Part shown: positions 2,449 to 45,164 of the stretch, piece by piece
How positions within the stretch are numbered: position 1 is the stretch's first letter
Layout: every line of letters starts with the position of its first letter
NCBI GenBank assembly: GCA_052168235.1
Contig: JBQLZK010000008.1
Location: 32,001 to 96,000, forward strand
Reading direction: 5' to 3'
Length of the DNA stretch: 64,000 nucleotides
DNA from: Thainema sp.
Lineage (GTDB): Bacteria > Cyanobacteriota > Cyanobacteriia > Phormidesmidales > Phormidesmidaceae
The notes under the pieces: model-generated
Databases searched by the model: none
Seen by the model: only the letters and a program-made list of their open reading frames with translations
What the model was told of the DNA's origin: nothing
Translations under genes and position numbers: made by a program

Positions 2449-2553
2449 TAAGTACTTGGACATAATTAAAAAACAGATCTCAAATCCTGTGCCGTCCGCG
2501 CAGCGGGCGGCACAGGATTTGAGGTTTTATGTTTAACTATGCTCAGCTACTTA
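2449..2553. mobile_element. MITE-like element carrying a long palindrome
   Basis: Imperfect 22-bp terminal IRs (TAAGTACTTGGACATAATTAAA / TTTAACTATGCTCAGCTACTTA); 21-bp-arm hairpin 2479-2523 with a GCA loop. Confidence 0.75.
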
Positions 2554-2556
2554 ATT

Positions 2557-2663
2557 CTTAGGAACATGAATTTAATCAGGTGAAATCTTTGGGGTAGGGA
2601 CACGGCATTGCCGTGTCCCTACGGATGGAATGATTGACAGGCTATTTAATTCACGATCCTTAG
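2557..2663. mobile_element. MITE-like element carrying a GTAG-type REP palindrome
   Basis: Imperfect 20-bp terminal IRs; GTAGGGACACGGC-ATT-GCCGTGTCCCTAC at 2594-2622. Confidence 0.75.
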
Positions 2664-2750
2664 CGGTTTAATGATCTTTGTTGTGTGGCCAATTCATACA
2701 GCAAAAATCATGACCTGAAACCATTACCTTGAGGCACGATTTAGGCATTT

Positions 2751-4067
2751 ATGCAGCGCAAATTTCTAATTCCAGCAGTTGCGGTTAGCATTGTTGCCGC
2801 GCTCGGCTTTGCCGCTAAATTTGTGCATGATCAAAACCGCGTTTACGTGCTGGAAATTGCCACTGCTAGCCGCGATGGGGAATATTACGCCTTTAGTCAG
2901 GCACTGGCCGAAGTTGCCAATCTCTATCAGCCTCGGCTGCGGATTAAAGTGATTGAAACTGCAGGTTCCGTCGAAAACATGGAGCTGCTGCGTCGCCACC
3001 AGGTTGATCTGGCCATTGTGCAGAGCGATACGTCTGTCGCCCCTCAGGTGCGGGGCGTCGCGGGCCTATTCCCGGAAGTGTTTCACCTGATTGCGGCCTC
3101 TGATGCTGGCATTGAGCGGGTTGTTGATCTACGCGGCAAACGAGTGGCACTGATGCCAGAAGGCAGCGGTTCCTATGCGCTGTTTTGGGAAATTGCTCAT
3201 CACTATGGTTTAACTGAAGCTGATATTGACTACACCGCCATGTCGGCGGCAGAGGCCCAATCCGCCTTTGAGCAAGGACAAGTGGATGCCATTTCCCGCA
3301 TTATCGCTTTAGGGAATTCTTCAGTGCGATCGCTGTTGCAAACGACTGAGGCTCAGTTTGTGCCGCTCGATCAAGCCGAAGCTGTGCAAATCATGCTGCC
3401 CTATTTGGAACCGATGAGCATCCCGAAAGGTGCCTATGTTGGCGCACCTTCAATCCCAGCCCAAAATTTACCAACCGTTTCAGTGCGGGCCTTATTAGTC
3501 GCCCATGAAGACGTTGATCCGGTGCTGATTCGGCAGTTGACTAGCTTGCTGTATGACTATCGTAGTGAACTCATTGATCGAAATCCTCGCGCCGCATCCA
3601 TTAGCGTTCCAGACTCGATGCTCAACTTGGGATTACCGCTACATGAGGGAGCTAGAGATTACTTTACACAGGATGAACCCAACTTTGTCGTGCGCTATGC
3701 GGAGGCATTGGGTTTTCTGCTGTCGGTTTCGGTACTGTTAGGGTCAGGACTCTGGCAGTTGCGCTTTAGCCTCACTCAGCGCCAGAAAAATCGAGCCGAT
3801 ATGTACAATTTGGAAATTTTGGCCTTGATTGAGCAAGTGTATGAAACTGATGATCCCGACAAGCTGGAAGTCATCCGCCGACAGCTGTTTGATATTCTCC
3901 AGAAAGTCGTGGACGATCTTGACCTTGATCGCATCACTCCTGAATCGTTCCAGTCATTTACCTTTCCGTGGGATGTAGCGATTACGACCATCCGCCATCG
4001 AGAGACGCTACTCAATCAGAAGTCTTTAACCAGTTCAGAAGATGCACCTGCTAACCCCAAAGCTTGA
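2751..4067 (+). CDS. TAXI family TRAP solute-binding protein with a C-terminal TM helix and cytoplasmic tail
   Basis: Motifs GEYY, ETAGSVEN, DLAIVQSD, DLRGKRVA, GSGS and PLHEGARDYF; extra hydrophobic helix near residues 320-337. Confidence 0.85.
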   Translation: MQRKFLIPAVAVSIVAALGFAAKFVHDQNRVYVLEIATASRDGEYYAFSQALAEVANLYQPRLRIKVIETAGSVENMELLRRHQVDLAIVQSDTSVAPQVRGVAGLFPEVFHLIAASDAGIERVVDLRGKRVALMPEGSGSYALFWEIAHHYGLTEADIDYTAMSAAEAQSAFEQGQVDAISRIIALGNSSVRSLLQTTEAQFVPLDQAEAVQIMLPYLEPMSIPKGAYVGAPSIPAQNLPTVSVRALLVAHEDVDPVLIRQLTSLLYDYRSELIDRNPRAASISVPDSMLNLGLPLHEGARDYFTQDEPNFVVRYAEALGFLLSVSVLLGSGLWQLRFSLTQRQKNRADMYNLEILALIEQVYETDDPDKLEVIRRQLFDILQKVVDDLDLDRITPESFQSFTFPWDVAITTIRHRETLLNQKSLTSSEDAPANPKA

Positions 4068-4083
4068 GCTATATCTGAAACAG

Positions 4084-4111
4084 AAAAAGAGACGCCACAG
4101 CTGCGTCTCTT
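4084..4111. terminator. Probable bidirectional intrinsic terminator
   Basis: AAAAAGAGACGC...GCGTCTCTTT between convergent genes. Confidence 0.55.
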
Positions 4112-4155
4112 TGGCAAGGTTATGATTACAGGACAGCAGTCAAGTTGTTCTAGCT

Positions 4156-4395
4156 TTAGTAAAACCCACACCGAATCTGGTACCACTGACCGTTAGCATC
4201 TCGACAGTAATAGCAGCCATCCCACCAAACACAGGCATCGTAGCCAGCGACAAAGTTTTCGGAATTCATCAAGTCGGCTACGTCATCACGACGATCTTCG
4301 GCGGAAGGTTTACGTAGCTCTTGCTCAAGACGGCTCTTTAGCTCATCTGAAACAGGTTGCAGCGCTGAAAACATTTGAAAATCTGAACTCATCAA
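4156..4395 (-). CDS. Small protein with a Cys/Trp/Tyr-rich C-terminus
   Basis: 79-aa ORF: charged N-terminal half, then ACVWWDGCYYC...WYQIRCGFY; long AT-rich upstream region. Confidence 0.65.
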   Translation of the reverse strand: MMSSDFQMFSALQPVSDELKSRLEQELRKPSAEDRRDDVADLMNSENFVAGYDACVWWDGCYYCRDANGQWYQIRCGFY

Positions 4396-4718
4396 TTATG
4401 TTTAATTATGATTTGATTATTTCAGTTCAACGCCTCAATGTCGTTGTAAAGACTTTGTATCTGAAATAACTTTTAAAGAAAACCCCGATCCCATGAAAGT
4501 TTTGTGTAATTGCCGCCGCACAATCGTCCTGCGCAACGATCGCCTCAAGCTCTAGTAATTGGTCAACTTGAATCTGATGGGTTTTGGGTTGATAGGTCGC
4601 GTGGAGTGCGGTATGTCAACTAGCAAAACTAGAGTTGACACAGTACTAGATTGATGGTGATTTGGGGCATGCTAAGAGCAGCCAGATCACGTTACTCGTA
4701 GGCGGGTCAAAATTTTTT

Positions 4719-5450
4719 ATGAAATTGCCTCCGGCTTGGCAACTGCCTCCAGAAATCAAGAATCGTTTTGGGCAAAAAAGTTCCGGTAAACAGCGGGCGA
4801 TGGTTGCTCAGGGGCACTTGCTGCTCGTGCTGCATAAGGTGCCGCAGCCAGGGGAACAGCAGCGAATTGGTACCTTTTTTTGGCGTAAACCCGACGGTAG
4901 TTGGGAACACAGCGGCGGCGGTATTGGTGTTCAAACCCTGGTGAAGCACCTACGCGAGTATGAGCAGGTTGAAAATCAGCTCAGTCGTCTATATGAAGAG
5001 GCTGACAGCGCAGACGACTACTTTGAGCTGTTGGAAGCCATGTCCCCAGTGCGGCGATCGGCGCGCAATCTGCATTCCACCCTGCAATCGGCCCGCGAAG
5101 GCATCCCCTGCGATCGCGACATCATCGATTTGCGCGACTGGGCCTATGAGCTAGAGCGCACCTTGGATTTGCTCTATGAGAATACAAAAAACGCGCTGGA
5201 TTTTCGCATGGCTCAACGGGCGGAGGAACAAGCTTACCTGACGCTTCAGTCGGTTAATGCAAGTCATCGACTAAACGTTTTGGCCGCCATCTTTTTCCCC
5301 TTAACAGCAGTGTCCTGCGTGTTCGGTATGAATCTGACTAGTGGATTAGAAGACAACTCGATCCTGACATTTTGGATAACGTTGGCATTTGCTGTAGCGC
5401 TGGGTTTATGGGTTCGTCGCTGGGTTACAACAGGAAAATGGCTGTCATAA
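4719..5450 (+). CDS. CorA-like divalent cation transporter domain protein
   Basis: IFFPLT...FGMN signature followed by two TM helices; ATG at 4719 preferred. Confidence 0.75.
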   Translation: MKLPPAWQLPPEIKNRFGQKSSGKQRAMVAQGHLLLVLHKVPQPGEQQRIGTFFWRKPDGSWEHSGGGIGVQTLVKHLREYEQVENQLSRLYEEADSADDYFELLEAMSPVRRSARNLHSTLQSAREGIPCDRDIIDLRDWAYELERTLDLLYENTKNALDFRMAQRAEEQAYLTLQSVNASHRLNVLAAIFFPLTAVSCVFGMNLTSGLEDNSILTFWITLAFAVALGLWVRRWVTTGKWLS

Positions 5451-5561
5451 TTATGCTGTAATGCTGATACAGTCTGCGATATGGAATCTCACTAGAAAGC
5501 TGCCGAATGATGTTTGGAATCTGATTGGTGGATTTGCATGAGACGTGATTTCTGTATCTAT

Positions 5562-5651
5562 TAGACTTTATCGGAAATTGTTTTGTAGCGCGGCTTCGCC
5601 GCGCTACAAAACAATTTCCAACCCCAAAAACTTTATTTCCAATAAAGTCTA
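5562..5651. mobile_element. MITE-like element carrying a perfect palindrome
   Basis: 16/17 terminal IR TAGACTTTAT[C/T]GGAAAT; 22-bp perfect arms 5573-5619 with a TTC loop. Confidence 0.8.
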
Positions 5652-5754
5652 TTACTTGTAGCTAGCTATTGAATCCATCACTCGGCAGCCCAAGAAACGT
5701 ATTAGACGACCAAAACTCATTAGAATCGAGAGATCAACGTCATTTTTGCGGTGC

Positions 5755-6879
5755 ATGGCTCAGATTTTAGTCATTGATGAAGATCCTGCGATTTTATTAC
5801 TCGCTCAGCGATCGCTGTCGCATCAGGGATATGAGGTCGCATTGGCCAACAACGGGGAAGAGGGCGTACGTAAAGCGAAAAGCCTACGTCCAGCAGTGGT
5901 GCTGTGTGACCAGATTATGCAAGGACTTAGTGGGCTGGAGGTGTGCCAACAGATAAAGGCCGATCCGGCGCTTTCCACGACGTTCATTATTCTGCTGACG
6001 GCTCGTACGGATATTCAAGATCGAATTGAGGGGTTTGACAGCGGAGCGGATGATTTCCTGACCAAGCCCGTTGATGTGAATGAAATGAATGCTCGCATTC
6101 GAGCAGCCATGCGGCTTTACCGGCTGAATCAAGATTTAGTTGAGCAAAAGCGATTACTGGAAGCGGAGCTGCACGAAGCCTCTGACTATGTGCGATCGCT
6201 ATTGCCCAAGCCAGCTAATCATCCTATTAAGGTAGAGTGTCACTTTTTACCGTCGCTCCAGTTGGGGGGCGACTGTTTTGATTATTACTGGCTCGATCCG
6301 GACTATCTGCTGATCTTTTTGCTAGATGTGTCCGGTCACGGTTTGGGAGCCGCGCTACCCTCAGTGACGATTCTGAATTTGTTGAGATCGCAGATGCTGC
6401 CGGATGTAAACTTCTACCGTCCTGAAACCGTGCTGGCCACGCTAAACGAAAACTTTCAGATGACTGAACAGCATAATAAATATTTCACGATTTGGTATGG
6501 AGTGTATAACTGCCAAACTCGCCAGCTGCTCTATGCTAGTGCGGGGCATCCGCCGGCCATTTTGGTTTCGGATCAGGTGCCAGTCCATGTTCAGCGGCTT
6601 GATACGCCTAATCCGCCGATAGGTTTTTTCTCGGATGTCATGTTCGTTAGCGATCGCTGTACGATTCCAGAACAGAGCTTACTCTATATTTTTAGCGATG
6701 GCATTTACGATGGCGTCAATCTCAGCAATGCGAAGGATTGGGGTTTAGATCGGTTTGTTGAACTCATTTCACAGCAGCCCTCTGAGTCTCTAGAAAGCTT
6801 GCTCGATCAGGTCAAAACGATTAATCAAACCCAAACCTTTCCAGATGATTTGTCGCTGCTTCGCTTCAGTTTGCCGTAG
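5755..6879 (+). CDS. Response regulator fused to a PP2C/SpoIIE (RsbU-like) phosphatase
   Basis: N-terminal receiver (GADDFLTKP); PP2C motifs GGD, DVSGHG, SAGHPP, SDGI and DDLS. Confidence 0.9.
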   Translation: MAQILVIDEDPAILLLAQRSLSHQGYEVALANNGEEGVRKAKSLRPAVVLCDQIMQGLSGLEVCQQIKADPALSTTFIILLTARTDIQDRIEGFDSGADDFLTKPVDVNEMNARIRAAMRLYRLNQDLVEQKRLLEAELHEASDYVRSLLPKPANHPIKVECHFLPSLQLGGDCFDYYWLDPDYLLIFLLDVSGHGLGAALPSVTILNLLRSQMLPDVNFYRPETVLATLNENFQMTEQHNKYFTIWYGVYNCQTRQLLYASAGHPPAILVSDQVPVHVQRLDTPNPPIGFFSDVMFVSDRCTIPEQSLLYIFSDGIYDGVNLSNAKDWGLDRFVELISQQPSESLESLLDQVKTINQTQTFPDDLSLLRFSLP

Positions 6880-6917
6880 CGGGTCAGTTTCATAAGTCTT
6901 TAAGGCGACCGTCCCTT

Positions 6918-7012
6918 CTACAGCCATCTTAAATTGATTATGAACAGGCCGCCCCGATGGGGCGGCCTGTTCATAATCAATTTAGTTCATCAGCTATTTG
7001 AGAGCGCTGTAG
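6918..7012. mobile_element. MITE-like element carrying a perfect palindrome
   Basis: 14/17 terminal IR CTACAGC...AAAT; 26-bp perfect arms 6930-6984 with a GAT loop. Confidence 0.8.
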
Positions 7013-7143
7013 ATCTTTCGCCAGACCTGAATATGACACACTAGACTGAGTACGTGTGGTTAATTTGAATCTGACGGACTAAACCTGACAACGTTAACCA
7101 ATTTCGACTAACTTCAATATTCTGGAAGCCTATCTCACCATTT

Positions 7144-7581
7144 ATGTCCGTGGAACCGTTATTTACACCGCACCAAATCGTTCGATTACACTGCGATCGC
7201 GCCTATCTATATGCTGAAGTGATTCAGCTCATCGAAAGTAAAAACTTGTGCTGGGCACGACCGCTGCTGCTTTGGTGTTGCGATCGCGGCCATAGCGAAT
7301 CACTCACTGCCTACTTTCAGCAGCCTGATACTTATCCAGGTTGTCGGCTGTATGATTTACGCCAGTTGGCTGATTTACTCTGGCCGACCCATTTATTTCA
7401 GCCTGTTCTCGATACTGAAGCGATTCCCTTACTGACCCATCTTTATCATCAAGATCATCAAGGTCAAGATCATCAAACGGCGAGTAGCTCTAATCCGATT
7501 CAGCTGGCCTCTGCAAAACAATTACGTCAATTCGTTGATCAAGTTTGGCAGTCTAATATGGAACAGTTCAAAAAAATGTAG
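7144..7581 (+). CDS. Hypothetical protein (cyanobacterial type)
   Basis: 145-aa ORF with LYAEVIQ...CWARPL and DLLWP..LF segments. Confidence 0.7.
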   Translation: MSVEPLFTPHQIVRLHCDRAYLYAEVIQLIESKNLCWARPLLLWCCDRGHSESLTAYFQQPDTYPGCRLYDLRQLADLLWPTHLFQPVLDTEAIPLLTHLYHQDHQGQDHQTASSSNPIQLASAKQLRQFVDQVWQSNMEQFKKM

Positions 7582-7829
7582 CGATGCATAGGAGTCTTCG
7601 TAGACTCATCAAACCCCTGATTATGTCGGTTCTATTAAATTAGATTGAGAACTGCTTAAGCTGAGAACTGTACAAAGATTTGGAATTTATACCCTGGTAA
7701 CTGAGACGTACTGAGGTGTATAAAGACGTTTGCATAGAGACGCTGCAATATAAAAGCGGAACTCACCCTGATTGCTTCCCAACCGCTTTTACTAAACCAT
7801 CTGTGATGAATAAATAAATTGATCGCTCA

Positions 7830-8024
7830 CTAGAAACTGGGCACTAACCGAATGCGGCCAGCATCCATCTCGGACATTAAAAGCTCCAGTGCTTCATAAT
7901 CCACATCCGAAACGTACCCTAACCGAGTTAGCTCATAGTTGATCTCATTTTCAATGTCAGGCGTTAACTGGCGAATATAGAGGGCTTTTTCCACCAGGCG
8001 ACGAATCACAAACTTAGGTTCCAT
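7830..8024 (-). CDS. Small conserved hypothetical protein
   Basis: 64-aa helical ORF with an ATG start, convergent with the previous gene. Confidence 0.65.
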   Translation of the reverse strand: MEPKFVIRRLVEKALYIRQLTPDIENEINYELTRLGYVSDVDYEALELLMSEMDAGRIRLVPSF

Positions 8025-8474
8025 GGGACTGAACTCTTTTTAAAATCTGTGTACCATAGCTCCAATTATTAACGACGCGCTTCTTTCCCTTTGTGATTTA
8101 ACACGCTAGTCTTTAGTGACCTGTATCACAGCCTGTTGTTTCCCGGTTAGCCACGCTAAAAGAATGTTTGTCTAAACGGGTGCGATGCCAAAAATCTGAT
8201 CAAGGTCTCTTCTACAGGAGATCTCATGATAGTGTTTGATTGGTCTGTGCAGCATTGGGACGACTTCGATCGCAATGTTTTGTATTCTGGCGCACTGTCT
8301 CAGTATAAACACTTACCCTAATCTTTAATGAACAAGCGCGCCTTGATAAAGATTCGGCAAAGCCGCTAGTAAAATCTGGCAAGTTCTAATCTAGTCCGAT
8401 TAACGTCGAAACATTAATACCGAGGTCTCGGCTTCGGTGGATTTTTATTTTTGTGGTTTTAAGGGAAGTAAGCA

Positions 8475-8807: not shown

Positions 8808-8927
8808 ACAGTCGCAATATAATTTAGCCAATACTCCCATCTACTGTTGATTAATCTTCATATTGCTGTTCATAGTTACCCGATGTAGTTTTGGCTCTCC
8901 TAGCTCCCCCTTAGCTCTTGAAACGGC

Positions 8928-8965
8928 AAAATAGCCCCAGCCTGGAAAGGCTGGGGCTATTTTTT
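8928..8965. terminator. Bidirectional intrinsic terminator
   Basis: AAAATAGCCCCAGCCT-GGAA-AGGCTGGGGCTATTTTTT. Confidence 0.7.
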
Positions 8966-9027
8966 ACCTTGCTGGTTGATGAAAGCCCCGCTTAACAAGC
9001 CATTCATAGCCTGACGTAATCAGGTTA

Positions 9028-9101
9028 AGGCAGATAGTTTTTGAGAACAGATAGTTTTTGAGAAGCTGCGCTTAGCGCAGCTTCTCAAAAACTATCTGCC
9101 T
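9028..9101. repeat. Long palindrome with a 17-bp tandem duplication in its left arm
   Basis: CAGATAGTTTTTGAGAA x2 (9031-9064), then GCTGCGC-TTA-GCGCAGC and the complementary arm. Confidence 0.85.
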
Positions 9102-9144
9102 GGTTCTAAGCGCATAGCGCTACATCACCATCACTTTGTCAGAT

Positions 9145-10884: not shown

Positions 10885-10925
10885 GGCAATGGTGAGGGAA
10901 ATCGATATCCCAAATTATGGCCAAT

Positions 10926-13886: not shown

Positions 13887-13977
13887 AAGGTAGTACCTCG
13901 CTAATCTGTCCTCAAATTCAGCTCCAGCTTTTACCGCCCTTATCACCTGCAGTCCCTTGCAGGTTGCAAAGTGATAC

Positions 13978-14071
13978 GAAGTCGGGTTAGAACCCAATGG
14001 ATTATTTGTGTCAAGTTAGCGAAGCCAGCCTTTCACAAACAATTCATTGGGTTCTCATACCCGAACTTGAT
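13978..14071. mobile_element. Degenerate palindrome-carrying MITE, sibling of the 15955-16050 element in opposite orientation
   Basis: 32-bp imperfect arms 13989-14055 with a GAA loop; its end matches TCAAGTCCGTGTATCAGAACCCAAT at 15955. Confidence 0.65.
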
Positions 14072-14337
14072 AGTAAATGTGTGAGCAGTAAGCCCCTTTG
14101 TGCTGAATAGGAGCAACGCAAACCAAAATTGAGAACATAGAACCCTGATCCTCGTGTCGTTAGCGTGCCCGTTTACACGCCCCAGTCATGGAAATCTCGA
14201 TAAAGTGTGAGAATTAGCAACACAGCGATACGTTTGTTCACGGTGATGCCCAGTTTGCTCCTGAAAGTCAGATTATGATTTGGCTGTGGAAACCTTGTTT
14301 AGCGAAGCTTTCACAGAGTTGGGGGATGAAGGGAAGA

Positions 14338-15954: not shown

Positions 15955-16050
15955 TCAAGTCCGTGTATCAGAACCCAATTTATTTTTTGTGAACGCTTGG
16001 CTTAACCAAGCGTTCACAAAAAATAAATCGTCAGGTTTAACCGGACTTTG
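15955..16050. mobile_element. MITE-like element carrying a long palindrome
   Basis: 23-bp perfect arms 15978-16028; outer AAGTCCG/CGGACTT inverted repeat. Confidence 0.75.
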
Positions 16051-28176: not shown

Positions 28177-28325
28177 TTGCTTCAACCTGCGATCGCACTT
28201 TCCCAGTGTCTGAAAGTGCGATCGCTCAGCTCATCACGGATCATTTTCTTTTCTTTGTTCTTCTAATTCTCGAATCGTCTGCCACCAGTAGTAATTTTCA
28301 GATTTTCCTTTTGCACTTTGCAAAC

Positions 28326-28390
28326 CAAAACCTAGAAGGGGATATTGTGCCGCCGCAGTGCGGCGGCACAATATCCCCTTCTAGGTTTTG
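28326..28390. repeat. Perfect 31-bp-arm palindrome
   Basis: CAAAACCTAGAAGGGGATATTGTGCCGCCGC-AGT-complement, between convergent ppc and RND genes. Confidence 0.9.
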
Positions 28391-28409
28391 ATTACAGATA
28401 TGAAATGAC

Positions 28410-31400
28410 CTAAAAATGTTCTTCCGAGTAGGATGGGTCGCCGCTGGAACTCGATGAGCCATCTGGTGATTGACCATCAGCGTTATCATATCCATTCCCA
28501 GATGGGCCATCATAAGCATAGTCAGAATGGTGTCCTCGGTGAGGACTGAGCCGATTTGTAATTTGCTTAATCACAATGTAGAGAATCGGCACCACAAACA
28601 AGCTCAAGAAGGTTGAAATAAACATGCCGCCAAACACTGCCGTTCCCAGAGACTGACGGCTTGCTGCTCCAGCACCCGTTGCAATGACCAAAGGGAAAAT
28701 ACCGCTCAGTGTCGAAATTGCCGTCATCAAAATTGGGCGAAGCCGTTGCTGAGCCGCTTCTAAAGCGGCTTTCGTAATAGACAAACCCTGCTCACGCAGT
28801 TGGTTGGCAAACTCCACAATCAGAATCGAGTTTTTGCTGGCCAGTCCAATCAGCATCACCAGACCAATCTGGCAATACACATCATTTGAGAACCCGCGTA
28901 GGCTTTGAGCGATCAGCGCTCCCAAAACCGCCAGCGGCACGGCAAACATAATGATTGTCGGGTCAACGTAGCTCTCATACTGCGCCGCTAGAACTAGAAA
29001 TACCAGCACCAAGCCCAGACCGAAAATAATCGGTGCTTGACCGCCGGATTCAATTTCCTCTAGCGAAGTGCCCGACCATTCATAGCCTAAACTCGGTGGT
29101 AATACCTGCGCCGCCACCTGCTCCATTGCTTGAATTGCGGTTCCAGAACTGGCCCCCGGTGCTGCTTGGCCATTAATTTCAATCGAGCGGAAAAGATTGT
29201 AGTGGTTGATTGTCTGTGCGCCCGTGGTTGATGTCACCGTGACCAAGTTGGCCATCGGAATCATCTGTCCCTCGCTAGACCGCACATAGAGCTGATTGAT
29301 GTCGTCAGGATTGGAGCGGAATGGCTCGTCAGCCTGCACGTAAACACGATAGGTGCGTCGGCCCAGGTTGAAGTTGTTGACAAACTGAGATCCCAAATAG
29401 ATTTGCAGCGTTGAGAAAATGTCGTCTACATTTACGCCCAAGCTCTTGGCGCGATCGCGGTTTACCTCCACCAATAACTGAGGCGTATTGGCCGCATAGG
29501 TACTAAACACGTTTTGCAAATTGGGGTTCTGATTGGCAGCCCCCAGCAGCGCACCCATGTTTTGCACGAGGGTTTGGATATCTACGCCGCGCCGATCCTG
29601 GAGCTGGAACTGGAAGCCACCAAAGCTGCCTAAACCCTGGATGGAGGGTGGATTGACGGGCAGAACCCTAGCATCCGTCAGTCCCATCAGCGGGCCACGA
29701 ACGCGATTAATGATAGCCTGAGCTGATTGATCTGGATCTTTCCGTTCTGACCAGGGCGTCAGCGTGGTAAACACAATGCCACTGTTGGCCGTGCCGCCAC
29801 CAAAGCTGAAACCACCCACCGCAAAGGTGGCTCGCACTTCATCCAGCGGCAGCAAAATTTGCTCAATCTGCTCCATCACGTCGCGGGTATAGTTGAGCGA
29901 TACCCCCTCTGGCCCTTGCACAATCGTAATGAAATAGCCCTGGTCTTCATCCGGTAAAAAGGCCGACGGCACGCTGGTATATATCCAGAACGTACAGAGC
30001 AACAGCAGGGCAAAGACGCCTATCACCACCGATTTGATCCGCACCAGCAGTTCAAGTATCCGACCATAGCCGTTGCGAACGGCATCCAAAAAGTGGTTAA
30101 AGGCATCAAAAATCCGACCAACCCAGCCATGTCGGGGCGGATTGCGCCGCAGTAAGAGGCCGGATAGTGTCGGCGTTAGGGTAAGAGCGTTAAAGGTGGA
30201 AACTGCGATCGCAAATGCAATCGTCAGCGCAAACTGGCGATACAGCGCTCCCGTAGTGCCTGGGAAAAAGGCCACGGGAATAAACACCGCCATCAGGACG
30301 AGGGATGTAGCAATGACCGCTCCGGTTAGCTCCCGCATCGCCACAATTGCCGCCTTACGAGGGTGCATACCCTGCTCAATCTTGGCCGCCACGTTTTCCA
30401 CGACAACAATGGCATCGTCCACCACCATGCCGGTCGCCAACGTCAAGCCAAACAGAGTCAAGCTGTTAATCGAAAAACCAAAGATCCGCACAAAGAAGAA
30501 CGTGCCGATTAGGGAAATCGGGATGGTGACTGCCGGAATGACGGTCGTGCGCCAGTCCTGCAAAAAGATGAAGATGACCGCAACAACCAAACCAACAGCT
30601 GCCAGCAGTGTCCAAACCACCTCAGACAGCGACTGCTCAACGTAGTCCGTGGTGTCAAAACCAATGTCATACTGCATGCCAGGCGGAAAGTCTGCCGCCA
30701 ATTCTGCCATTCGCGCTCTAACGCCCCGCGCTACGTCGAGGGCATTACTGCCTGGAATCTGATTGATACCCAGTCCAACGGCCTCATTGCCGCGAAAGCG
30801 CAAAAAGCTGCTGTAATCTTCTGCCCCTAGCTCTACCCGGCCCACATCTTTTAGCTGAGTCAGCGCTCCACTCTCGCTGGTGGCAATAATGATATCTTCA
30901 AATTCCTCAACACTCTCTAGCCGACTTTCGGCCCGCACATCAATCTGAAACGGTTGATCAGACGGCTGTTGACCAATTCGGCCTGCACCAATTTGGATAT
31001 TTTGTTCCCGCAGCGCATTGGTAACATCCTGCGCGGTTAAATTCCGAGCCGCGAGTCGATTCGGGTCAAGCCACAGCCGCATGGCGTATCGGCGTTCACC
31101 AAAAATCTGCACGTTACCGACGCCGTTCACCCGCTTTAGCTCATCAACGATATATAAATCGGCATAATTGCTCAAAAAGGTGCTGTCATACTCACCATCA
31201 TCTGAAAACAGGCCAAAACCCATTAACAGGCTGCTGGACTGCTTACTGACGCTGATACCTGTCCGGGTAACCGCTTCAGGCAACTGGGCCTCGGCTACAG
31301 ATACCCGATTCTGTACGTCAACCGCAGCAATATCCTGGTCACGAGTGGCATCGAATGTGACGGTAATATTGCTGACGCCGCTGTTAGTACTGTTAGACGT

Positions 31401-36995: not shown

Positions 36996-37071
36996 ATTGT
37001 CAGCTCATTCGCTGATCAATAAAGTCCCCATTACTCAACACCTAGTTCGTTTTCCTGGAGATTGATCAACT

Positions 37072-37998: not shown

Positions 37999-38152
37999 CA
38001 GTATTAATTAGCAGTTCAACTGAGACGTAATTGAGGCGTGATTGAGATATCATCCACATTGCCTGATCAGCGCCACCTGCAAACTGTCTCCTGCGAATTC
38101 TATTGGCCAAGCGCTAGAGCTATAGTAATGGACGAGTGCTCTAGCCAGAACC

Positions 38153-39280: not shown

Positions 39281-39282
39281 AA

Positions 39283-39329
39283 GTTCTGTTTGTGAAAGCT
39301 TGGCTCAGCCAAGCTTTCACAAACAGAAC
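39283..39329. repeat. Perfect 22-bp-arm palindrome
   Basis: GTTCTGTTTGTGAAAGCTTGGC-TCA-GCCAAGCTTTCACAAACAGAAC between co-oriented genes. Confidence 0.9.
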
Positions 39330-39364
39330 GGGTTAGTTTTATGAACGGCAATAGGACGGTAGCA

Positions 39365-40354
39365 ATGAAAGCATTAGTCACGGGTGCCAATGGATTCACC
39401 GGATCTCATCTGGTCGAAGCGCTGAATCAGCGGGGCGATCAGGTGGTGGGACTGGTGCGTCAAACCAGTGATTTGTCGCGCTTGCAAGATGCCGAGATTG
39501 AACTGGTCTATGGCGATATCTGCGATCGCGATTCTCTCTTAAAAGCAATGACCGATGTGGACGTGGTGTTTCACATTGCCGCCTATGTGGAATTGGGACT
39601 GGTCAACGAAGCCTATATGGAGCGGGTCAACGTGGAGGGTACTCGTAATGTGCTGGAAGTGGCGCAGTCTCTGCAGATGGAACTAGGCAAACCGACGAAG
39701 CTGGTCTATTGCAGCACAATCGGCATCTATGGCGACACCCAGGGGCAAACGATTGACGAAACCTTTCAGCGCACCCAGACGACCTATTCCTCGGCCTACG
39801 ATCGCACGAAGCTCCAGGCGCAGCAGCTAGTAGATCAGGCGGCACGCAATGGTTTGCCGATTGTCAGCCTGATGCCCGCTGGCATTCTCGGCTCGGATGA
39901 TCCGCACTTTGGGCCAGCGGTGCAGCTTTTCCTCAAGGGTTGGATGAAGTTCTGGCCCGGTGGCGACCGGGTGACGGGCGTGGTGCATGTGGACGATTTG
40001 GTCAGCGCCATGCTGCTGGCGGCGGATAAGGCCCCAGCGGGTGAACACTACATCATCTCGGCGGGTGATTTGACGACGCGAGAAATGTTCCAGTTACTGA
40101 GCCGAGAAACGGGCATTCCCGCACCTAAAGATCCACCAGAAGCTGTCGTGCGCTTCGTAGGCAATGTGCTTGACCCAATTGGCCGCGTTTTCAAGTGGAA
40201 TCCGCCCATCGGTCGCGAACGAGTTCACTATATTTATGATCGCTGCGTGCGCGTAGACGCAAGTAAGGCACGGCGGGAGCTAGACTGGCAACCGCGATCG
40301 GTGGAGGCGTTATTGCAGCAAATTGTCAAAGAAATGCAGGTGGCTAAAAGGTAG
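39365..40354 (+). CDS. NAD-dependent epimerase/dehydratase (extended SDR)
   Basis: Motifs LVTGANGFTG, VFHIAA, YDRTK and VHVDD. Confidence 0.9.
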   Translation: MKALVTGANGFTGSHLVEALNQRGDQVVGLVRQTSDLSRLQDAEIELVYGDICDRDSLLKAMTDVDVVFHIAAYVELGLVNEAYMERVNVEGTRNVLEVAQSLQMELGKPTKLVYCSTIGIYGDTQGQTIDETFQRTQTTYSSAYDRTKLQAQQLVDQAARNGLPIVSLMPAGILGSDDPHFGPAVQLFLKGWMKFWPGGDRVTGVVHVDDLVSAMLLAADKAPAGEHYIISAGDLTTREMFQLLSRETGIPAPKDPPEAVVRFVGNVLDPIGRVFKWNPPIGRERVHYIYDRCVRVDASKARRELDWQPRSVEALLQQIVKEMQVAKR

Positions 40355-40443
40355 GTTGGGTAGAGCAACGCGAAACCCAACAAAAACTCTGTCAACACCC
40401 AAAAACTTGTAAATGTTGGGTTTCATTCTTCAACCCAACCTAC
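40351..40443. repeat. Paired GTAG-type REP (REPIN-like doublet)
   Basis: GTAGGTTGGGTAGAG...AAACCCAACA-spacer-TGTTGGGTTT...AACCCAACCTAC. Confidence 0.8.
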
Positions 40444-40505
40444 AGGATTTGCGATCGCACTGAGACATAGCATCAAAAGCAGCTTCTTCGTCTGCCAGAT
40501 GAGCA

Positions 40506-41088
40506 TCACAAATCATTTACATCAACTACGCTGCCGTATTCTTCGGAATAAACAAACTGCCCCGACGCCAAGCCCTCGGCATATTATTGCTTCAGCCAAT
40601 CCCGAAAGCTGGGCGCAATAAGCTTGCGCTCGTCGTCATCGTGCCACATTGTGATGATTTGTCCGACTTTTCCACCATCAGCCGGGTTCAAATCTAGACA
40701 GTCATGATTTCCTGCACCGTCATGGGTTAGCGGTATCCACTTGTCGCTCCACCAAACGTGGCGAATGCCAGGGTCGGGGTTACTTTCCTGAGTTGGATCA
40801 TGAATTTGGAATTCACCGCTATCTAGCAATTCTTTCCAAACTTGCCATTCATTCCGAATCCGTTCCAGCGACAGAAATTCTCGCCCATTGATCAACCCAT
40901 ATCTATAGGTTGATTGGCCGTTATGAACGTGATAGGAAGCTTTAACATCTTCGGGAAATTGAATAGAGAGAAGATTTTCCAACTCCAGCAATCTGAGCAT
41001 CGGATGCTCCAGGTTGTAGCGTGTCTAATACCTGTGGCGCATTTGCCTGCATCCATTTTTCGATTTGGCTCCAAATGTCTTGCATCAT
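40506..41088 (-). pseudogene. SMI1/KNR4 family protein pseudogene
   Basis: IWSQIEKW...LQPGAS in one frame and ELEN...HNGQ...WIPLTHDGAGNHDCLDL.P...GQII in another (frameshift near 40986); in-frame TAA at 40584-40586 followed by a plausible C-terminus YAEGLASGQFVYSEE. Confidence 0.8.
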
Positions 41089-41347
41089 TGTTTTATGGTC
41101 AGTGTGCAGCTCATTTGACATCACTCTGCCTCCTGCGATCGCAGCTTCACGTTGCAGCTTTATTTCATTGTATGAATCTTGATCCGGCTCCGTATCAGCA
41201 CAGCCAGTTCTCACCCAAACCTGTTAAGCGGGACTAAGGATCTATTGTTAATCCCTCATTTTTTGGCGACACTAATAGATCCAGGGGTGCGATCGCAGGT
41301 TGATGCCTTCGATTGCCGATCCTGTGCCGTCATTCAATAGAAGCTCT

Positions 41348-42676
41348 ATGCCCCCAATCCCTACCTCTACTCAGTCAACCGTTGAACAACTGCTGGAACT
41401 GGCTCAGCCACGGGTTGATGCCGCCGAAGTGTACTACGTCGCCAGCCAGGACACGCCGATTAGCTTTGAGAATAATCGGCTGAAGTCGCTGGAAACGAAA
41501 GCGCTGCGGGGCGTAGCGCTGCGGGTGATTCACAATGGCCGCTTGGGCTTTGCCAGTTCAACGGATCTGACTCGGCTGAATGACTTGGTAGATGCGGCCA
41601 TCGATACGGCTAAGATTGGCAGTCCGGCAGAATTTGAGTTTGCCTCCAACTTCCACGACAACCAGCCCGCCAGCGACTACACGCCGCCCAGTTCCGAGGT
41701 GCTGGTGGAAACGGGACAGCGCCTGATTCAGCAGGTGCATGAGTATAACCCAGACATTCTGGTAGACGTGAGTTTTCACGTTCGTTCCGGTCAGGTGCAA
41801 ATGGCGACCACGCAAGATGTCTATGCCGAGCGCTCCAGCCAGTCGATCAGCGGCGTGATCGGCGGCAATCTGGTGCGGGGCGAAGACTTTCTGCAAATTT
41901 ACACCTACGGCGTAGAGTGCGATCGCACTCCGGATTTCGATCAATTGCTGAAGACGCTGCTGCAAAAGTACGAATGGGCCGACCGCAGCCAAGCCAAAAT
42001 CACCAGCGGCAGCTTTCCGGTGATCTTCACGCCTCGCGCAGCAGCTCAGGTTTTGGGCGGACTGTTCGACACCATTCTGTCCGGACAAACGGTGATTCAA
42101 AACGCTTCGCCCCTGTCCGACAAAGTGGGCGAGAAGGTGTTTGACGAACGCCTGACCCTGTTTGAAGATCCCAGCATTGGCCCTTCGGCCTGCACGTTTG
42201 ACGATGAGGGCACACCAACCAGCTACACCAAGTACATCGATCAGGGCACGGTGCAAGGGTTCTACTGGGATCGCCGCTGGGGCGCACGAGCCAATCGGGC
42301 ATCTACCGGGAACGGTTTCCGGGGCGGGTTATCGCGTCCTAGTCCATCAATGGCGAATCTCTGTTTGGCACCGGGACAAACCTCAATGGCTGACCTGATT
42401 GCGGGCATGAAAGAAGGGCTGATTGTCGATCAGGTACTTGGTGCTGGACAGTCGAACCAGCTAGCAGGCGAATTCTCAGTCAATCTCGACCTAGGCTACA
42501 AGGTGGAAAACGGCGAAATTGTCGGTCGCGTCAAGGACACGATGGTGGCGGGCAGCATTTTCGAGGCGTTCCAGCAGCTTGAAGACATGGGCAGTGAATC
42601 CGAATGGGTCGGCGGCAGCATGTACCTACCCTGCGTCGCGTTCAAACAGCTCGGCGTATCGGCACGGCAGGCATAG
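41348..42676 (+). CDS. TldD/PmbA family protein
   Basis: Motifs GVALRVIHNGRLGFASST, FDDEGTP, STGNGFR and GEFS..LDLGYKVENGEI. Confidence 0.92.
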   Translation: MPPIPTSTQSTVEQLLELAQPRVDAAEVYYVASQDTPISFENNRLKSLETKALRGVALRVIHNGRLGFASSTDLTRLNDLVDAAIDTAKIGSPAEFEFASNFHDNQPASDYTPPSSEVLVETGQRLIQQVHEYNPDILVDVSFHVRSGQVQMATTQDVYAERSSQSISGVIGGNLVRGEDFLQIYTYGVECDRTPDFDQLLKTLLQKYEWADRSQAKITSGSFPVIFTPRAAAQVLGGLFDTILSGQTVIQNASPLSDKVGEKVFDERLTLFEDPSIGPSACTFDDEGTPTSYTKYIDQGTVQGFYWDRRWGARANRASTGNGFRGGLSRPSPSMANLCLAPGQTSMADLIAGMKEGLIVDQVLGAGQSNQLAGEFSVNLDLGYKVENGEIVGRVKDTMVAGSIFEAFQQLEDMGSESEWVGGSMYLPCVAFKQLGVSARQA

Positions 42677-42683
42677 CGACATC

Positions 42684-43160
42684 GTGTCAACCCTCACCAT
42701 CCGAGATGCAGCGCCACCTGATGTGGCGCTGATTTTGAACTTTATTCAGAAAAAAGCCGATTTTGATCGAGCACTGGGTGGCTTTTCCGGTGAGCTACAG
42801 ACGACAGAAGAGAAGATGCAACGGGCGATATTTAGCGAAATTCCCTTTGCCTATGTGCTGCTGGCGGAGCTTGACGCAGGACCCGTTGGCTTTGCGCTGT
42901 ATGGCTTGCACTTTTCCTCGTTTGCTGGACAGCCGAACCTCTGGCTAGATGATTTGTACGTGGAACCAGCGGCGCGGAATCAGGGAGTTGGCTCGGCGCT
43001 GATGGCGCGTTTGGCTGAAATTGCCCGCGCTAATGACTGCACACACCTGGGCTGGAATGCGGATGCACGAAATGCTGAAGGGTTGAGGTTCTATCAGCGA
43101 TTGGGCGCAGAAATAATTACCTTGCCAGAAAATCGGCGGTTCTTGCGTTGGGAAGGATAG
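42684..43160 (+). CDS. GNAT acetyltransferase (SSAT-like)
   Basis: LWLDDLYV...RNQGVGSALM and N..G..FY.RLG; GTG start at 42684. Confidence 0.88.
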   Translation: MSTLTIRDAAPPDVALILNFIQKKADFDRALGGFSGELQTTEEKMQRAIFSEIPFAYVLLAELDAGPVGFALYGLHFSSFAGQPNLWLDDLYVEPAARNQGVGSALMARLAEIARANDCTHLGWNADARNAEGLRFYQRLGAEIITLPENRRFLRWEG

Positions 43161-43239
43161 GAAAAGCTGCGATCGCATCCCCCCTCAACCCAAACCATCA
43201 ACACAAAACCAACTACCTTCAACCCACCTTCGACGAGGT

Positions 43240-43297
43240 CCAGGACGGTCGTTCGTCCTGGTCGAGGGGGACTGGGGGCAATCGAAATGCCCCCAGT
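43240..43297. repeat. Double hairpin repeat
   Basis: CCAGGACG/CGTCCTGG and ACTGGGGGCA/TGCCCCCAGT stems. Confidence 0.6.
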
Positions 43298-43341
43298 AGC
43301 CAGGTTCTACAACCCCTCAACCCTTGCTAAGCAGTAACCCC

Positions 43342-43575
43342 CTACCCCATCGTCCGCTTACGACTCATCACGCTGATGTACTCCCCACTGCGACCCGTGG
43401 GCAGCGGCTTACTCCAGGCAACGCGATCGCAATAGCCCAGCGTATCCAGACGGTGAATCGCATCGGCCAGGGCAGAGTAGTCGCCCAGCAGAATGTGGCG
43501 AACGGTTTCTTGATTGAAGGTTGGCAAGCTGAAGGCGGGAGAGACAGTGGCCTCTCCGGTGGGTGATTGAAACAT
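43342..43575 (-). CDS. Small cyanobacterial hypothetical protein
   Basis: 77 aa; VRHILLG...IHRL..LGY....WSKPLPTG..GEY; GGAGA RBS before ATG 43575. Confidence 0.7.
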   Translation of the reverse strand: MFQSPTGEATVSPAFSLPTFNQETVRHILLGDYSALADAIHRLDTLGYCDRVAWSKPLPTGRSGEYISVMSRKRTMG

Positions 43576-43917
43576 ACGGGTGTCTCCGTTTTCGACTAAA
43601 GGAAAACGGGGAACTATCCAGATCCCTATTTGATGCGGTAAAGGCAAGATAGCAGGACTAAAATGATCCCAGTCATCTCGACTTACCTAGGTTAAGTTGG
43701 GATGATCAGGAGATTTGGGAGGTGGCACCCTCTCAGATCTCCGCCTAGAATCATTCCCCGCAAGACTAAAAGTATCAAGAAGCAGCTAGGCAGTTCAACC
43801 GTATTTATCTGTTTGTAAGGATTAGGTTTGGAACTGCTGACGTGAAGTGCGATCGCACATTTCTCTGAACGCATAAACCCCAAAACTGCGATCGCACTGG
43901 ATTATTGCGAACATCCC

Positions 43918-43945
43918 GTAGGGGCGAATGGCCATTCGCCCCTAC
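43918..43945. repeat. GTAG REP, perfect 28-bp palindrome upstream of the RAYT gene
   Basis: GTAGGGGCGAATGGCCATTCGCCCCTAC. Confidence 0.9.
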
Positions 43946-44009
43946 AGCAAGGTGTATATAATTACCAACATGGGCACCCTAAAACATCGGTGTATTAAAC
44001 CCATCGCAC

Positions 44010-44606
44010 ATGAAATACAATCCTGATAAACATCATCGTCGTTCCATTCGCCTCAAAGGATACGATTATTCATCACCGGGCGCGTATTTCATCACCATTT
44101 GCACCCATCAACGCGAATGTTTATTCGGCAATATTGTTGACGGCGAAATGCAATTGAATCCGTTCGGTGAAATTGTTGCCGAAGAATGGTTGCGATCGCA
44201 GAATATCCGTCAAGAAATCAATTTGGATGCCTGGGTGGTCATGCCCAATCATATTCACGGCATCGTATTTATTCAGGGCAAAACATCACAACAGGTATCG
44301 GATAATTCATCCCAGGTGTCTGATCAGCCGCGAAATCCCGTAGGGGCGAATGGCCATTCGCCCCTACAACGTATGGCATCTCGTTCGTTATCGTCATTCA
44401 TAACGGGATTTAAATCCACGGCAACCAAACGCATCAACATACTGCGAGATATGCCCAGAACACCCGTTTGGCAACGCAATTATTACGAACACATTATTCG
44501 CAGCGAAGAATCCCTGGAGCATATTCGACGCTACATTCAGACAAATTCTGCTAACTGGAATAACGATCAGCTTCATCCAGAAAATTGGGCTGAGACACAA
44601 TCATGA
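44010..44606 (+). CDS. REP-associated tyrosine transposase (RAYT, HUH/Y1 family)
   Basis: RRSIRLKGYDY, YFITICT, MPNHIHG (HUH), WQRNYYEHIIR and YIQTN; REP immediately upstream. Confidence 0.9.
   Translation: MKYNPDKHHRRSIRLKGYDYSSPGAYFITICTHQRECLFGNIVDGEMQLNPFGEIVAEEWLRSQNIRQEINLDAWVVMPNHIHGIVFIQGKTSQQVSDNSSQVSDQPRNPVGANGHSPLQRMASRSLSSFITGFKSTATKRINILRDMPRTPVWQRNYYEHIIRSEESLEHIRRYIQTNSANWNNDQLHPENWAETQS
44340..44367. repeat. Identical REP copy inside the RAYT coding sequence
   Basis: Same 28-bp palindrome, translated in frame as VGANGHSPL(Q). Confidence 0.9.
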
Positions 44607-44618
44607 TTCAAAAAACCA

Positions 44619-45110
44619 ATGACAGCATCGATCACTACCTATTACCTTGAAATGCTTTCACCCGAAGCGCTCCAGGCCAAACCAGTCGTGCCAGAGCTGA
44701 GCATCGTTGAATGTCAAATCAAGCAGTTTCAGTTCAATCGATTTCTCTATCAGTTCATCGGTGAAGCGTGGCAGTGGACAGACAAGCTCAGTTGGACAGA
44801 TGAGCAGTGGCGGCAGCTCGTGGAAGCCGATAATCATCAGACGTGGGTGGCCTATTGCCAAGGTGAGATCGCAGGTTACTACGAACTTCATCGCCCCGAT
44901 GGTCAGAATGCCGAAATCCTCTACTTTGGCCTCGCACCGCAGTTCATCGGTCAAGGATTGGGCGGTTATCTGCTGACCCACGCGATTCAGTCGGCCTGGG
45001 ACTGGGCAGGCACCAAGCGGGTTTGGGTGCATACCTGTAGCAACGACCATCCCAGCGCCCTACGGAACTATCAGGCGCGCGGGATGCAAATTTATCGGGT
45101 CGAGAATTAG
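44619..45110 (+). CDS. GNAT acetyltransferase
   Basis: YFGLAPQFIGQGLGG and VWVHTCSNDHPSAL.NY..RG. Confidence 0.9.
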   Translation: MTASITTYYLEMLSPEALQAKPVVPELSIVECQIKQFQFNRFLYQFIGEAWQWTDKLSWTDEQWRQLVEADNHQTWVAYCQGEIAGYYELHRPDGQNAEILYFGLAPQFIGQGLGGYLLTHAIQSAWDWAGTKRVWVHTCSNDHPSALRNYQARGMQIYRVEN

Positions 45111-45123
45111 CTTTATTTCTGTT

Positions 45124-45164
45124 GTGTTGTTGGCAGAGATGCATTGCATCTCTCCCAACAACAC
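45124..45164. repeat. 19-bp-arm palindrome
   Basis: GTGTTGTTGGCAGAGATGC-ATT-GCATCTCTCCCAACAACAC (one mismatch). Confidence 0.8.

What the first reader, a model, noticed from the sequence alone, without database searches (positions are those of the whole stretch)
2449..45164. Family of long palindromes with different sequences but one architecture, several riding inside unrelated MITE ends
Seen: hairpins at 2479-2523, 5573-5619, 6930-6984, 9048-9098, 13989-14055, 15978-16028, 28326-28390, 39283-39329 and 45124-45164. Arms are 19-32 bp and mostly perfect, AT-rich outside and GC-rich inside, and usually close a 3-nt loop as GC-NNN-GC (GCA, TTC, TTA, GAA, AGT, TCA, ATT; one is CC-GAT-GG). Most share no primary sequence. 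At least four sit inside different terminal IR pairs (TAAGTA..., TAGACT..., CTACAG..., AAGTCC...). At 5562 and 6918 the left arm overlaps the left terminal repeat, so the right arm re-creates part of it. Inference: these are not copies of one transposon. They may be made in place, by a short GC hairpin core plus fold-back copying of adjacent DNA, possibly started by an HUH nuclease such as the RAYT at 44010. That would be a structure-defined palindrome-generating system. They are much longer than terminators need to be, and some lie between co-oriented or divergent genes.
Basis: partly seen in the sequence, partly recalled or inferred. Interest (0 to 1): 0.8.

Follow-up and report, generated by a model that had tools for sequence, protein, structure and literature searches.

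The report
Mini-transposons with self-flipping hairpin cores
The long DNA hairpins are real: most are the cores of at least 14 unrelated families of tiny jumping elements in this cyanobacterium, the rest look like gene-end stop signals, and copying errors keep the two arms matched and flip the three-base loop, an unusual convergence built from known mechanisms.

Summary
Observation confirmed and larger than reported: the genome holds about 860 odd-centred long palindromes (516 with arms ≥18 bp and a 3-nt loop, 380 of them GC-NNN-GC; none in a shuffle). About two thirds are fixed interiors of ≥14 MITE families (75-111 bp) with different terminal repeats and target duplications, mobilised by DDE transposases. 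The two cognate full-length ISs found carry the same ends but no hairpin. Most of the rest are unique and sit at gene ends like bidirectional terminators. The arms are rewritten in place: paired substitutions dominate the outer arm, the loop occurs in both orientations in 14 of 14 families, and orthologous copies in a sister species are flipped, homogenised or extended. This is the signature of polymerase template switching. The RAYT link is not supported as the generator: its own REPs share the GC-NNN-GC tip but are not extended, though a few cores may be REP-derived. A second, distant genus has the same architecture and shares one family. Earlier scan notes saw single such elements elsewhere and one in this genome. 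Verdict: new variant of a known kind.

The parts
2449..2553 (.). MITE (105 bp), TAAGTA-type terminal repeats, palindrome core 2479-2523 (loop GCA); between divergent genes
   Evidence: 6 loci in G000 and 8 in 340 kb of G022; absent at the orthologous site of G001
5562..5651 (.). MITE family 1 (90 bp), core 5573-5619 (loop TTC); ends match a DDE_Tnp_4/HTH_Tnp_4 transposase element over 18-19 bp only
   Evidence: 103 loci in the census; parent ends; Pfam
6919..7011 (.). MITE family 10 (93 bp, TA-flanked), core 6930-6984 (loop GAT)
   Evidence: 31 loci; a contig of run X3 spanning it has one other letter, and X3's best-placed difference is the middle loop base 6957
9007..9124 (.). TA-type MITE with core 9048-9098 (loop TTA) and a recent 17-bp direct duplication of the outer left arm (9031-9047); between convergent genes
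   Evidence: 9 loci; a contig of run X1 has a 17-base gap here
13972..14075 (.). Decayed MITE family 0 copy, core 13989-14055 (loop GAA, inner stem broken)
   Evidence: absent in G001 and skipped (13921-14095) by contigs of runs X2 and X4, one study
15955..16050 (.). MITE family 0 copy, core 15978-16028 (loop TTA, closing pair broken)
   Evidence: 178 loci in the family; absent in G001
28310..28410 (.). Decayed MITE family 3 copy; core 28326-28390 extended to 31 bp (loop AGT); between convergent ppc and an AcrB-family gene
   Evidence: family 3 ends match a DDE_Tnp_1/DDE_5 transposase element that has no hairpin
39283..39329 (.). Orphan core of family 0 type (loop TCA) that has lost its terminal repeats; old insertion between two co-oriented genes
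   Evidence: G001 has a shorter, concertedly diverged palindrome here; in G005 the two genes abut with no insert
45124..45164 (+). Unique palindrome (loop ATT) 14 nt after the stop of a GNAT gene; terminator-like
   Evidence: no other copy; conserved in place in G001 with a different loop
44010..44606 (+). RAYT (Y1 HUH) gene with an in-frame double-foot REP at 44340-44367 and another at 43918-43945; not part of the palindrome families, kept as control
   Evidence: PF01797 E 8e-7; the in-frame REP fits subclass 2.4 of PMC6006769

Best explanation
Two known processes stacked. (1) Spread: at least 14 MITE families, each made of the two terminal repeats of a different DDE insertion sequence around a foreign 40-60-bp perfect palindrome with a GC-closed 3-nt loop, are moved in trans by those transposases (shown: families, target duplications, empty sites, cognate ISs; inferred: which transposase moves which family). 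(2) Upkeep: during replication or gap repair the polymerase switches template between the arms. Fold-back on the nascent strand copies one arm over the other and can run on into the flank; a switch to the sister strand also inverts the loop. Exposed loops mutate faster than the flanks in 13 of 14 families (shown: the mutation pattern and in-place flips; inferred: the enzyme and the hairpin intermediate). Concerted drift and loss of terminal repeats leave orphan hairpins that look unrelated. The same upkeep acts on native terminators, and hairpins at gene 3' ends are preferentially kept because they can stop or stabilise transcripts in both directions (inferred). How each family first captured its palindrome is not shown; pre-existing short GC-tipped hairpins (terminators, REPs) are the likeliest seeds.
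For: 561 of 859 odd-centred hairpins fall in 14 families; 316 loci have both own ends, 95 one own end, 45 core only, 6 one foreign end only, 3 two ends with a foreign one, of which 2 are nested insertions. Parents carry the ends but no hairpin. 42 of 49 family sites syntenic with G001 have no orthologous hairpin, 25 of them shorter by >50 bp. In 512 full copies, distinct one-sided/two-sided events are 49/4 at positions 1-2 from the loop, 121/48 at 3-7 and 118/153 at 8-22 (Fisher p 1e-13); private events 22/4, 66/25, 94/82 (p 2e-4); 551 two-sided changes against at most 142 expected. The modal loop occurs in both orientations in 14 of 14 families, 169 against 101; family 1 copies within one change of consensus carry TCC 12, GGA 5, TTC 9, GAA 8. 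Among 23 orthologous hairpin pairs: 3 exact flips, 2 same, 6 nearer the flipped loop, 4 nearer unflipped, 8 ties; 49 two-sided against 40 one-sided differences. Arm extensions go both ways (family 1: 9 and 11). Loop changes on the TCC strand are 62 of 106 C>T and 25 of 106 C>A at the third base. 117 of 218 placeable unique hairpins lie between convergent genes against 15-18% background. Arm homogenisation plus spacer inversion is the described outcome of template switching (PMC8604942 passages; PMC5941160 abstract).
Against: It does not explain why so many unrelated terminal-repeat families hold a palindrome, nor the patchy spread (two genera high, 14 other genomes sampled near zero). Perfect arm lengths outside the families are bimodal (7-8, then 18-30, trough at 9-17 apart from the 13-bp REP), more like one jump than gradual creep. 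Flipped copies are not longer than unflipped ones (7 families, all n.s.), so flips and extensions are not shown to be one event. Parents were found for only 2 of 14 families. 349 of 861 census loci were dropped for low coverage or arm indels. Two of the 23 orthologous pairs (C4:138333, C26:73287) may be independent insertions. No RNA data test the terminator role.
Confidence: 0.68

Rival explanations
1. REP-seeded fold-back: a RAYT or other HUH nuclease nicks 3' of a short GC-NNN-GC hairpin; the freed end primes copying of 10-20 nt of upstream DNA in one step, making the long palindromes, some of which were later captured by IS ends.
For: Both REP types of this genome with a 3-nt loop have the same GC-NNN-GC tip and loops (ATC, ACT, AGT, ATT, AAT, ACC) that also dominate unique hairpins and families 3, 10, 11, 12. 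Families 1, 6 and 9 have a GTAG/GTGG foot 6 or 9 bp from the loop, and family 12 shares its 6-bp tip with a REP. Break in composition and in one-/two-sided changes at 7-8 bp; bimodal arm length.
Against: GTRG within 20 nt of the loop: 4 of 14 families (3.2 expected), 25 of 295 non-family hairpins (52 expected), 20 of 111 in G022 (15 expected, 40 of 500 shuffles reach it). REPs themselves are not extended or homogenised. Of 5 RAYT hits in G000 only the window's has a long palindrome within 1.5 kb; 0 of 13 Y1 loci of genus g22 have 3-nt-loop palindromes on both sides, 4 have none. RAYT neighbourhoods of 80 other genomes hold 5 such hairpins in 658 kb.
Confidence: 0.17
2. Cruciform processing: the GC-closed short loop lets the palindrome extrude; a junction resolvase or hairpin nuclease cuts it, and repair through hairpin-capped ends flips the loop and equalises the arms.
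For: Loop mutation spectrum typical of exposed single strands; flips near equilibrium in very young copies; mismatches persist only near the loop.
Against: Gives the same sequence outcome as template switching and cannot be told apart here; sbcD is present in high- and low-density genomes alike (5 of 5); 7-bp REP stems, too short to extrude, also show both loop orientations.
Confidence: 0.1
3. Selection on RNA only: the hairpins are bidirectional terminators kept paired by compensatory mutation.
For: 259 of 835 convergent intergenic regions hold one against 105 of 956 divergent; relatives' tRNA-Met terminators are also long and perfect, 3 of 18 with GC-NNN-GC.
Against: Cannot invert a loop; cannot give two-sided private changes in young selfish copies; most family cores lack a U-tract (mean best T count 2-5 of 8); the 39283 copy sits inside a gene pair that abuts in G005.
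Confidence: 0.04
4. Flips and perfect arms are library or assembly artefacts.
For: Several contigs end at these hairpins and one G001 contig has a poly-G run there.
Against: Flips are common in families whose palindrome is 37-47 bp, shorter than the ~55-base contig overlaps seen; paired substitutions differ between two independently sequenced genomes at the same site; genus g22 shows the architecture in 19 genomes.
Confidence: 0.01

Closest known systems
Bacterial MITEs (Correia/NEMIS, RUP, ERIC, Nezha, QMITE; review PMC10969869, passages read)
   Same: Short, non-coding, terminal inverted repeats, target duplications, many intergenic copies, nested insertions, mobilised in trans; stem-loop transcripts and possible terminators are described.
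   Different: Here the interior is not a remnant of the parent IS but a foreign perfect palindrome, and ≥14 families with at least three kinds of target duplication and transposase share one architecture, a flipping 3-nt loop and concerted arms. Not found described in 7 literature searches.
TATAG-ended hairpin MITE of Ca. Thiomargarita nelsonii (PMC4853749, passages and MITE section read)
   Same: IS630-like ends around one long (51 bp) hairpin; the hairpin alone is also scattered through intergenic regions.
   Different: One family; loop flipping, arm conversion and convergence of unrelated families are not reported in what I read; sequences not compared.
Quasi-palindrome template switching (PMC8604942 passages; PMC5941160 abstract)
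   Same: Arm homogenisation, arm extension and reversible spacer inversion, favoured by short spacers and long arms.
   Different: There a rare mutational event; here close to equilibrium across hundreds of loci within very young repeat copies.
REP/RAYT systems, subclass 2.4 with double-foot REPs (PMC6006769 passages and section 13; PMC3733652 passages)
   Same: The genome has such a RAYT and REPs with the same GC-NNN-GC tip; families 1, 6 and 9 contain a REP-like footed core.
   Different: The long palindromes mostly lack the GTRG guide, sit inside DDE-type ends with target duplications, and do not flank RAYT genes.
Intrinsic (bidirectional) terminators of cyanobacteria (PMC12642595 abstract)
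   Same: Unique hairpins lie about 40 nt after stop codons, A-tract before and T-tract after.
   Different: Arms of 16-30 bp and a 3-nt loop; bacteria overall prefer 4-nt spacers (PMC13155455 passages).

Membership tests
MITE | Terminal inverted repeats around a short non-coding interior | tested here: met
   14 consensus elements of 75-111 bp (family 4 consensus trimmed on one side)
MITE | Target site duplication | tested here: met
   TA ends in families 1, 2, 6, 7, 10; 8-bp direct repeats at some copies of families 11 and 12; clean insertion at CTAG for a family 4 copy
MITE | Multi-copy, with empty orthologous sites | tested here: met
   14-178 loci per family; empty sites
MITE | Autonomous IS with the same ends | tested here: inconclusive
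   Found for family 1 and family 3 (in relatives only); a DDE_3 element has ends resembling families 2 and 7; not found for the others (plasmid searches for families 0, 3, 8 empty)
MITE | Interior is an internal-deletion remnant of the parent IS | tested here: not met
   Similarity stops after 16-19 bp in both families with a parent
REP/RAYT | GTAG/GTGG guide at the foot of the hairpin | tested here: not met
   Not enriched overall; present inside the arm of families 1, 6, 9
REP/RAYT | Copies flank the RAYT gene | tested here: not met
REP/RAYT | Cleavage by TnpA-REP on single-stranded DNA | not testable with these tools
   needs purified enzyme
Template-switch hotspot | Two-sided arm changes, arm extension and spacer inversion | tested here: met
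Template-switch hotspot | Dependence on replication direction and on exonuclease/repair genotype | not testable with these tools
   draft genome in 205 contigs; no mutants
Intrinsic terminator | Hairpin plus U-tract just after a gene | tested here: inconclusive
   Position met for unique hairpins (median 43 nt from stop to loop); T-tract moderate (118 of 295 with ≥5 T in 8); weak for most family cores
Intrinsic terminator | Transcript 3' ends at the hairpin | not testable with these tools
   no RNA holder listed

The most novel reading that the evidence does not exclude
Two distant cyanobacterial genera share a dedicated palindrome-writing activity: a nuclease or primase-polymerase that recognises a GC-NNN-GC hairpin tip, copies 10-20 nt of flanking DNA onto the other side in one step and flips the loop. 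It would turn REPs and short terminators into 50-bp palindromes, and MITEs of many transposase families would have captured these because the rewriting or the two-way terminator helps them spread. Not excluded: bimodal arm lengths, the sharp 7-bp boundary, 433 of 456 family cores with an unchanged centre length, three sites where G001 has an even-centred hairpin and G000 a 3-nt loop, and the two-genus distribution. No candidate gene was found.
Probability: 0.15. Interest if true: 0.85.

Novelty: new variant of a known kind. Interest (0 to 1): 0.5.

Why it matters
Unrelated transposase families converging on the same internal palindrome suggests that the cargo, not only the ends, decides which MITEs spread, possibly by supplying two-way terminators in a phylum that lacks Rho and whose transcript ends are poorly explained. 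The hundreds of copies with asymmetric flanks are a ready-made assay for template switching in a natural bacterial genome: each flip and each paired change can be read and dated against the flanks, and young copies are already near 50:50. It also warns that perfect covariation in such hairpins is not evidence of a conserved RNA structure.

Tried and rejected
The first count of 533 of 556 hairpins without mismatch is biased by an 8-bp perfect seed and was replaced by the homology census. Loss of SbcCD as cause: rejected, sbcD present in G000, G001, G022, G005, G003 (sbcC not checked). Frequent swapping of cores between families: rejected, though families 1 and 6 share 13 of 16 core bases across different transposase types. 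GNA-triloop stability as the rule: fits family founders (GGA, GAA) and G022 (59 of 111) but not unique G000 hairpins (GAA 6, GGA 3, GCA 4, GTA 1 of 295). Hairpin-less minis of families 3 and 12 in G000 read best as deletions between short direct repeats, not ancestors; direction not proven. Link between flips and extensions: none. The family 1/6 core pattern is absent or at control level in 250 other genomes of the phylum (genus g22 not in that sample). The pattern was uninformative (rare in G000 itself). Plasmid searches for three families gave nothing useful. Rfam: no match in the window. No RNA holder listed. The contigs laid are short and of low depth, so only bridged places are used. Elhai et al. 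2008 on small cyanobacterial repeats is not held and could bear on novelty; no supplements were read. Density in further genomes beyond the 17 sampled was not measured directly.
Full report
Setting. The window is G000:C8:32001-96000 of a 7.54-Mb draft genome in 205 contigs with 8,963 copies of the HIP1 octamer, so a cyanobacterium. The flanking genes are ordinary. Rfam finds nothing in the window.

1. The observation. All nine hairpins are present as described; five are perfect, three have one mismatch, one (13989) is decayed. Genome-wide there are 581 hairpins with arms ≥14 bp and a 3-nt loop, 422 closed GC-NNN-GC, against 2 in a block shuffle; at ≥18 bp 516 and 380 against 0; the 4-nt class is five to eight times rarer. 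A mismatch-tolerant scan gives 859 odd-centred hairpins. Arms have a GC-rich inner 7 bp and a C-poor outer left arm, with a sharp change at position 8.

2. What they are. Clustering with flanks gave 14 larger families, each a 75-111-bp element: imperfect terminal repeats around one perfect palindrome. 561 of the 859 hairpins belong to them; 60 of the 295 others (3 REP-like left out) have further copies, and 235 are unique. Target duplications differ: TA, CTAG-type, and 8 bp. The family 1 ends belong to a DDE_Tnp_4/HTH_Tnp_4 transposase element present in G000 and full-length in relatives; similarity ends after 18-19 bp and the parent has no hairpin. The family 3 ends belong to a DDE_Tnp_1/DDE_5 element in relatives, again without a hairpin. 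A DDE_3 element has ends like families 2 and 7. The IS family names that go with these (ISL2-like, IS701-like, IS630, IS1-like) are recalled, not from a call. Cores stay with their own ends: 316 loci both own, 95 one own, 45 core only, 6 one foreign only, 3 with a foreign end of which 2 are nested insertions. In 1.07 Mb of the sister species G001, 42 of 49 syntenic family sites lack the hairpin and 25 are shorter by more than 50 bp. In the window, 2479, 13989 and 15978 are empty in G001, contigs of two runs of one study skip 13921-14095, and the genes around 39283 abut in G005. Eight of the nine window hairpins have homologues.

3. In-place rewriting. Of 861 loci found by homology, 512 with full coverage and no arm indel were scored. 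Distinct one-sided/two-sided events: 49/4 at 1-2 bp from the loop, 121/48 at 3-7, 118/153 at 8-22 (p 1e-13); for changes seen in one copy only 22/4, 66/25, 94/82 (p 2e-4); 551 two-sided changes against at most 142 if arms mutated independently. Because the ends are asymmetric, loop orientation can be read: the modal loop occurs both ways in 14 of 14 families, 169 against 101, and near-identical family 1 copies carry two loop alleles each in both orientations. At 23 orthologous sites of G000 and G001: 3 exact flips, 2 same, 6 nearer flipped, 4 nearer unflipped, 8 ties, with 49 two-sided and 40 one-sided differences; two pairs may be independent insertions. Clear cases: C1:105390 (flip, one paired change, restored arm), C13:80916 (flip), C14:70901 (a decayed family 3 copy extended from 14 to 31 bp). 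Extensions overwrite left or right about equally in families 1 and 3, and are not tied to flips. Loops diverge faster than flanks in 13 of 14 families, mostly by C>T and G>T. Homogenised arms with an inverted spacer are the described products of intra- and intermolecular template switching (PMC8604942, passages; PMC5941160, abstract).

4. The unique hairpins. 117 of 218 placeable ones lie between convergent genes (15% for random intergenic positions, 18% of regions), and the non-family set has a median of 43 nt from stop codon to loop (genes called by a simple ORF rule). 259 of 835 convergent regions hold a hairpin against 348 of 2,588 tandem and 105 of 956 divergent. Downstream of the same tRNA gene, relatives also have long perfect terminators, 3 of the 18 shown with GC-NNN-GC. 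So the set mixes native terminators with MITE remnants, both under the same rewriting.

5. Distribution. Long 3-nt-loop palindromes per Mb: G000 89, G001 86, G022 180 (another family); 4 in 683 kb of ten other genomes and 0 in 139 kb of four more. With a looser cut G022 has 111 in 340 kb against 114 per Mb in G000. A G022 module pattern occurs in 19 of 20 genomes of its genus (2-89 copies) and in none of 281 others, G000 included; it sits inside several TA-type ends, one resembling family 6. The family of window 2449-2553 has 6 loci in G000 and 8 in the G022 sample, and the family 1/6 core occurs in G022 with other arms. Horizontal exchange of MITEs between the two genera is the simplest reading (inference).

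6. The RAYT question. The gene at 44010 is a RAYT with an in-frame double-foot REP, as in subclass 2.4 (PMC6006769 section 13). For a link: two REP types here have the GC-NNN-GC tip and the same loop set as many unique hairpins, and families 1, 6, 9 and 12 contain REP-like cores; non-family arm lengths are bimodal. Against: the guide is not enriched; 70 copies of the 13-bp REP show 58 one-sided and 7 two-sided changes and 62 have no extension; RAYT loci are not bracketed by the palindromes in G000 or genus g22. REP origin of a few cores is plausible; RAYT as a general palindrome writer is not shown.

7. Comparison and novelty. They meet the MITE tests except that the interior is not a parent remnant. 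The nearest published case I saw is a hairpin MITE of Thiomargarita (PMC4853749). Seven searches of the open library found no description of this convergence or of the second genus's module; most subscription papers, among them Elhai et al. 2008, were not searchable, and no supplements were read. Earlier scan notes describe single MITEs with self-renewing palindromes in other genomes and one hairpin element in this genome; I did not test them, and my reading was recorded before seeing them.

Verdict. Real, genome-wide and well supported as MITE cargo plus template switching (0.68); a dedicated writing enzyme remains possible (0.15). New variant of a known kind; interest 0.5.

Noticed in passing
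window 43918-44606: RAYT gene with one REP upstream and an identical 28-bp REP inside the reading frame; conserved in G001.
   Followed up: partly
window 2594-2622 and about 2650-2720: A 29-bp double-foot REP with a GC-NNN-GC tip, followed by a weak match to family 12; four repeat types crowd this one intergenic region.
   Followed up: partly
G000:C2:256629-258749 and L344 (G585): A Y1/RAYT-like domain lies in frame in the middle of a 706-aa protein whose flanking parts look like a restriction-modification subunit (resemblance recalled, not tested); a similar fusion occurs in genus g22.
   Followed up: no
L312:1860-1990, L306:1510-1640, L309:14040-14170 (G022): TA-type elements holding two adjacent palindromes that share an arm (X, core, inverted X, core, X), as two successive fold-backs would give.
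   Followed up: no
G000:C8:147740-147846: A copy of the 2449 family carries both loop orientations side by side, a possible frozen flip intermediate.
   Followed up: no
G000 C62:34646, C5:18501, C7:55985 against G001: G001 has an even-centred hairpin where G000 has a 3-nt loop; direction unknown.
   Followed up: no
L182:2027, 7516, 8357 and L141:4250: Two Chloroflexota records show the same long GC-NNN-GC palindromes, so the architecture is not confined to cyanobacteria.
   Followed up: no
window 8928-8963, 28189-28225, 63359-63394: Three further 14-16-bp hairpins with 4- or 9-nt loops, terminator-like, outside the family.
   Followed up: no
G001:C3:1-96 (L299) and ends of G000 C25, C70, C99, C160: Contigs break, once with a poly-G run, at these hairpins; they probably stall short-read sequencing, so copy numbers are lower bounds.
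   Followed up: no
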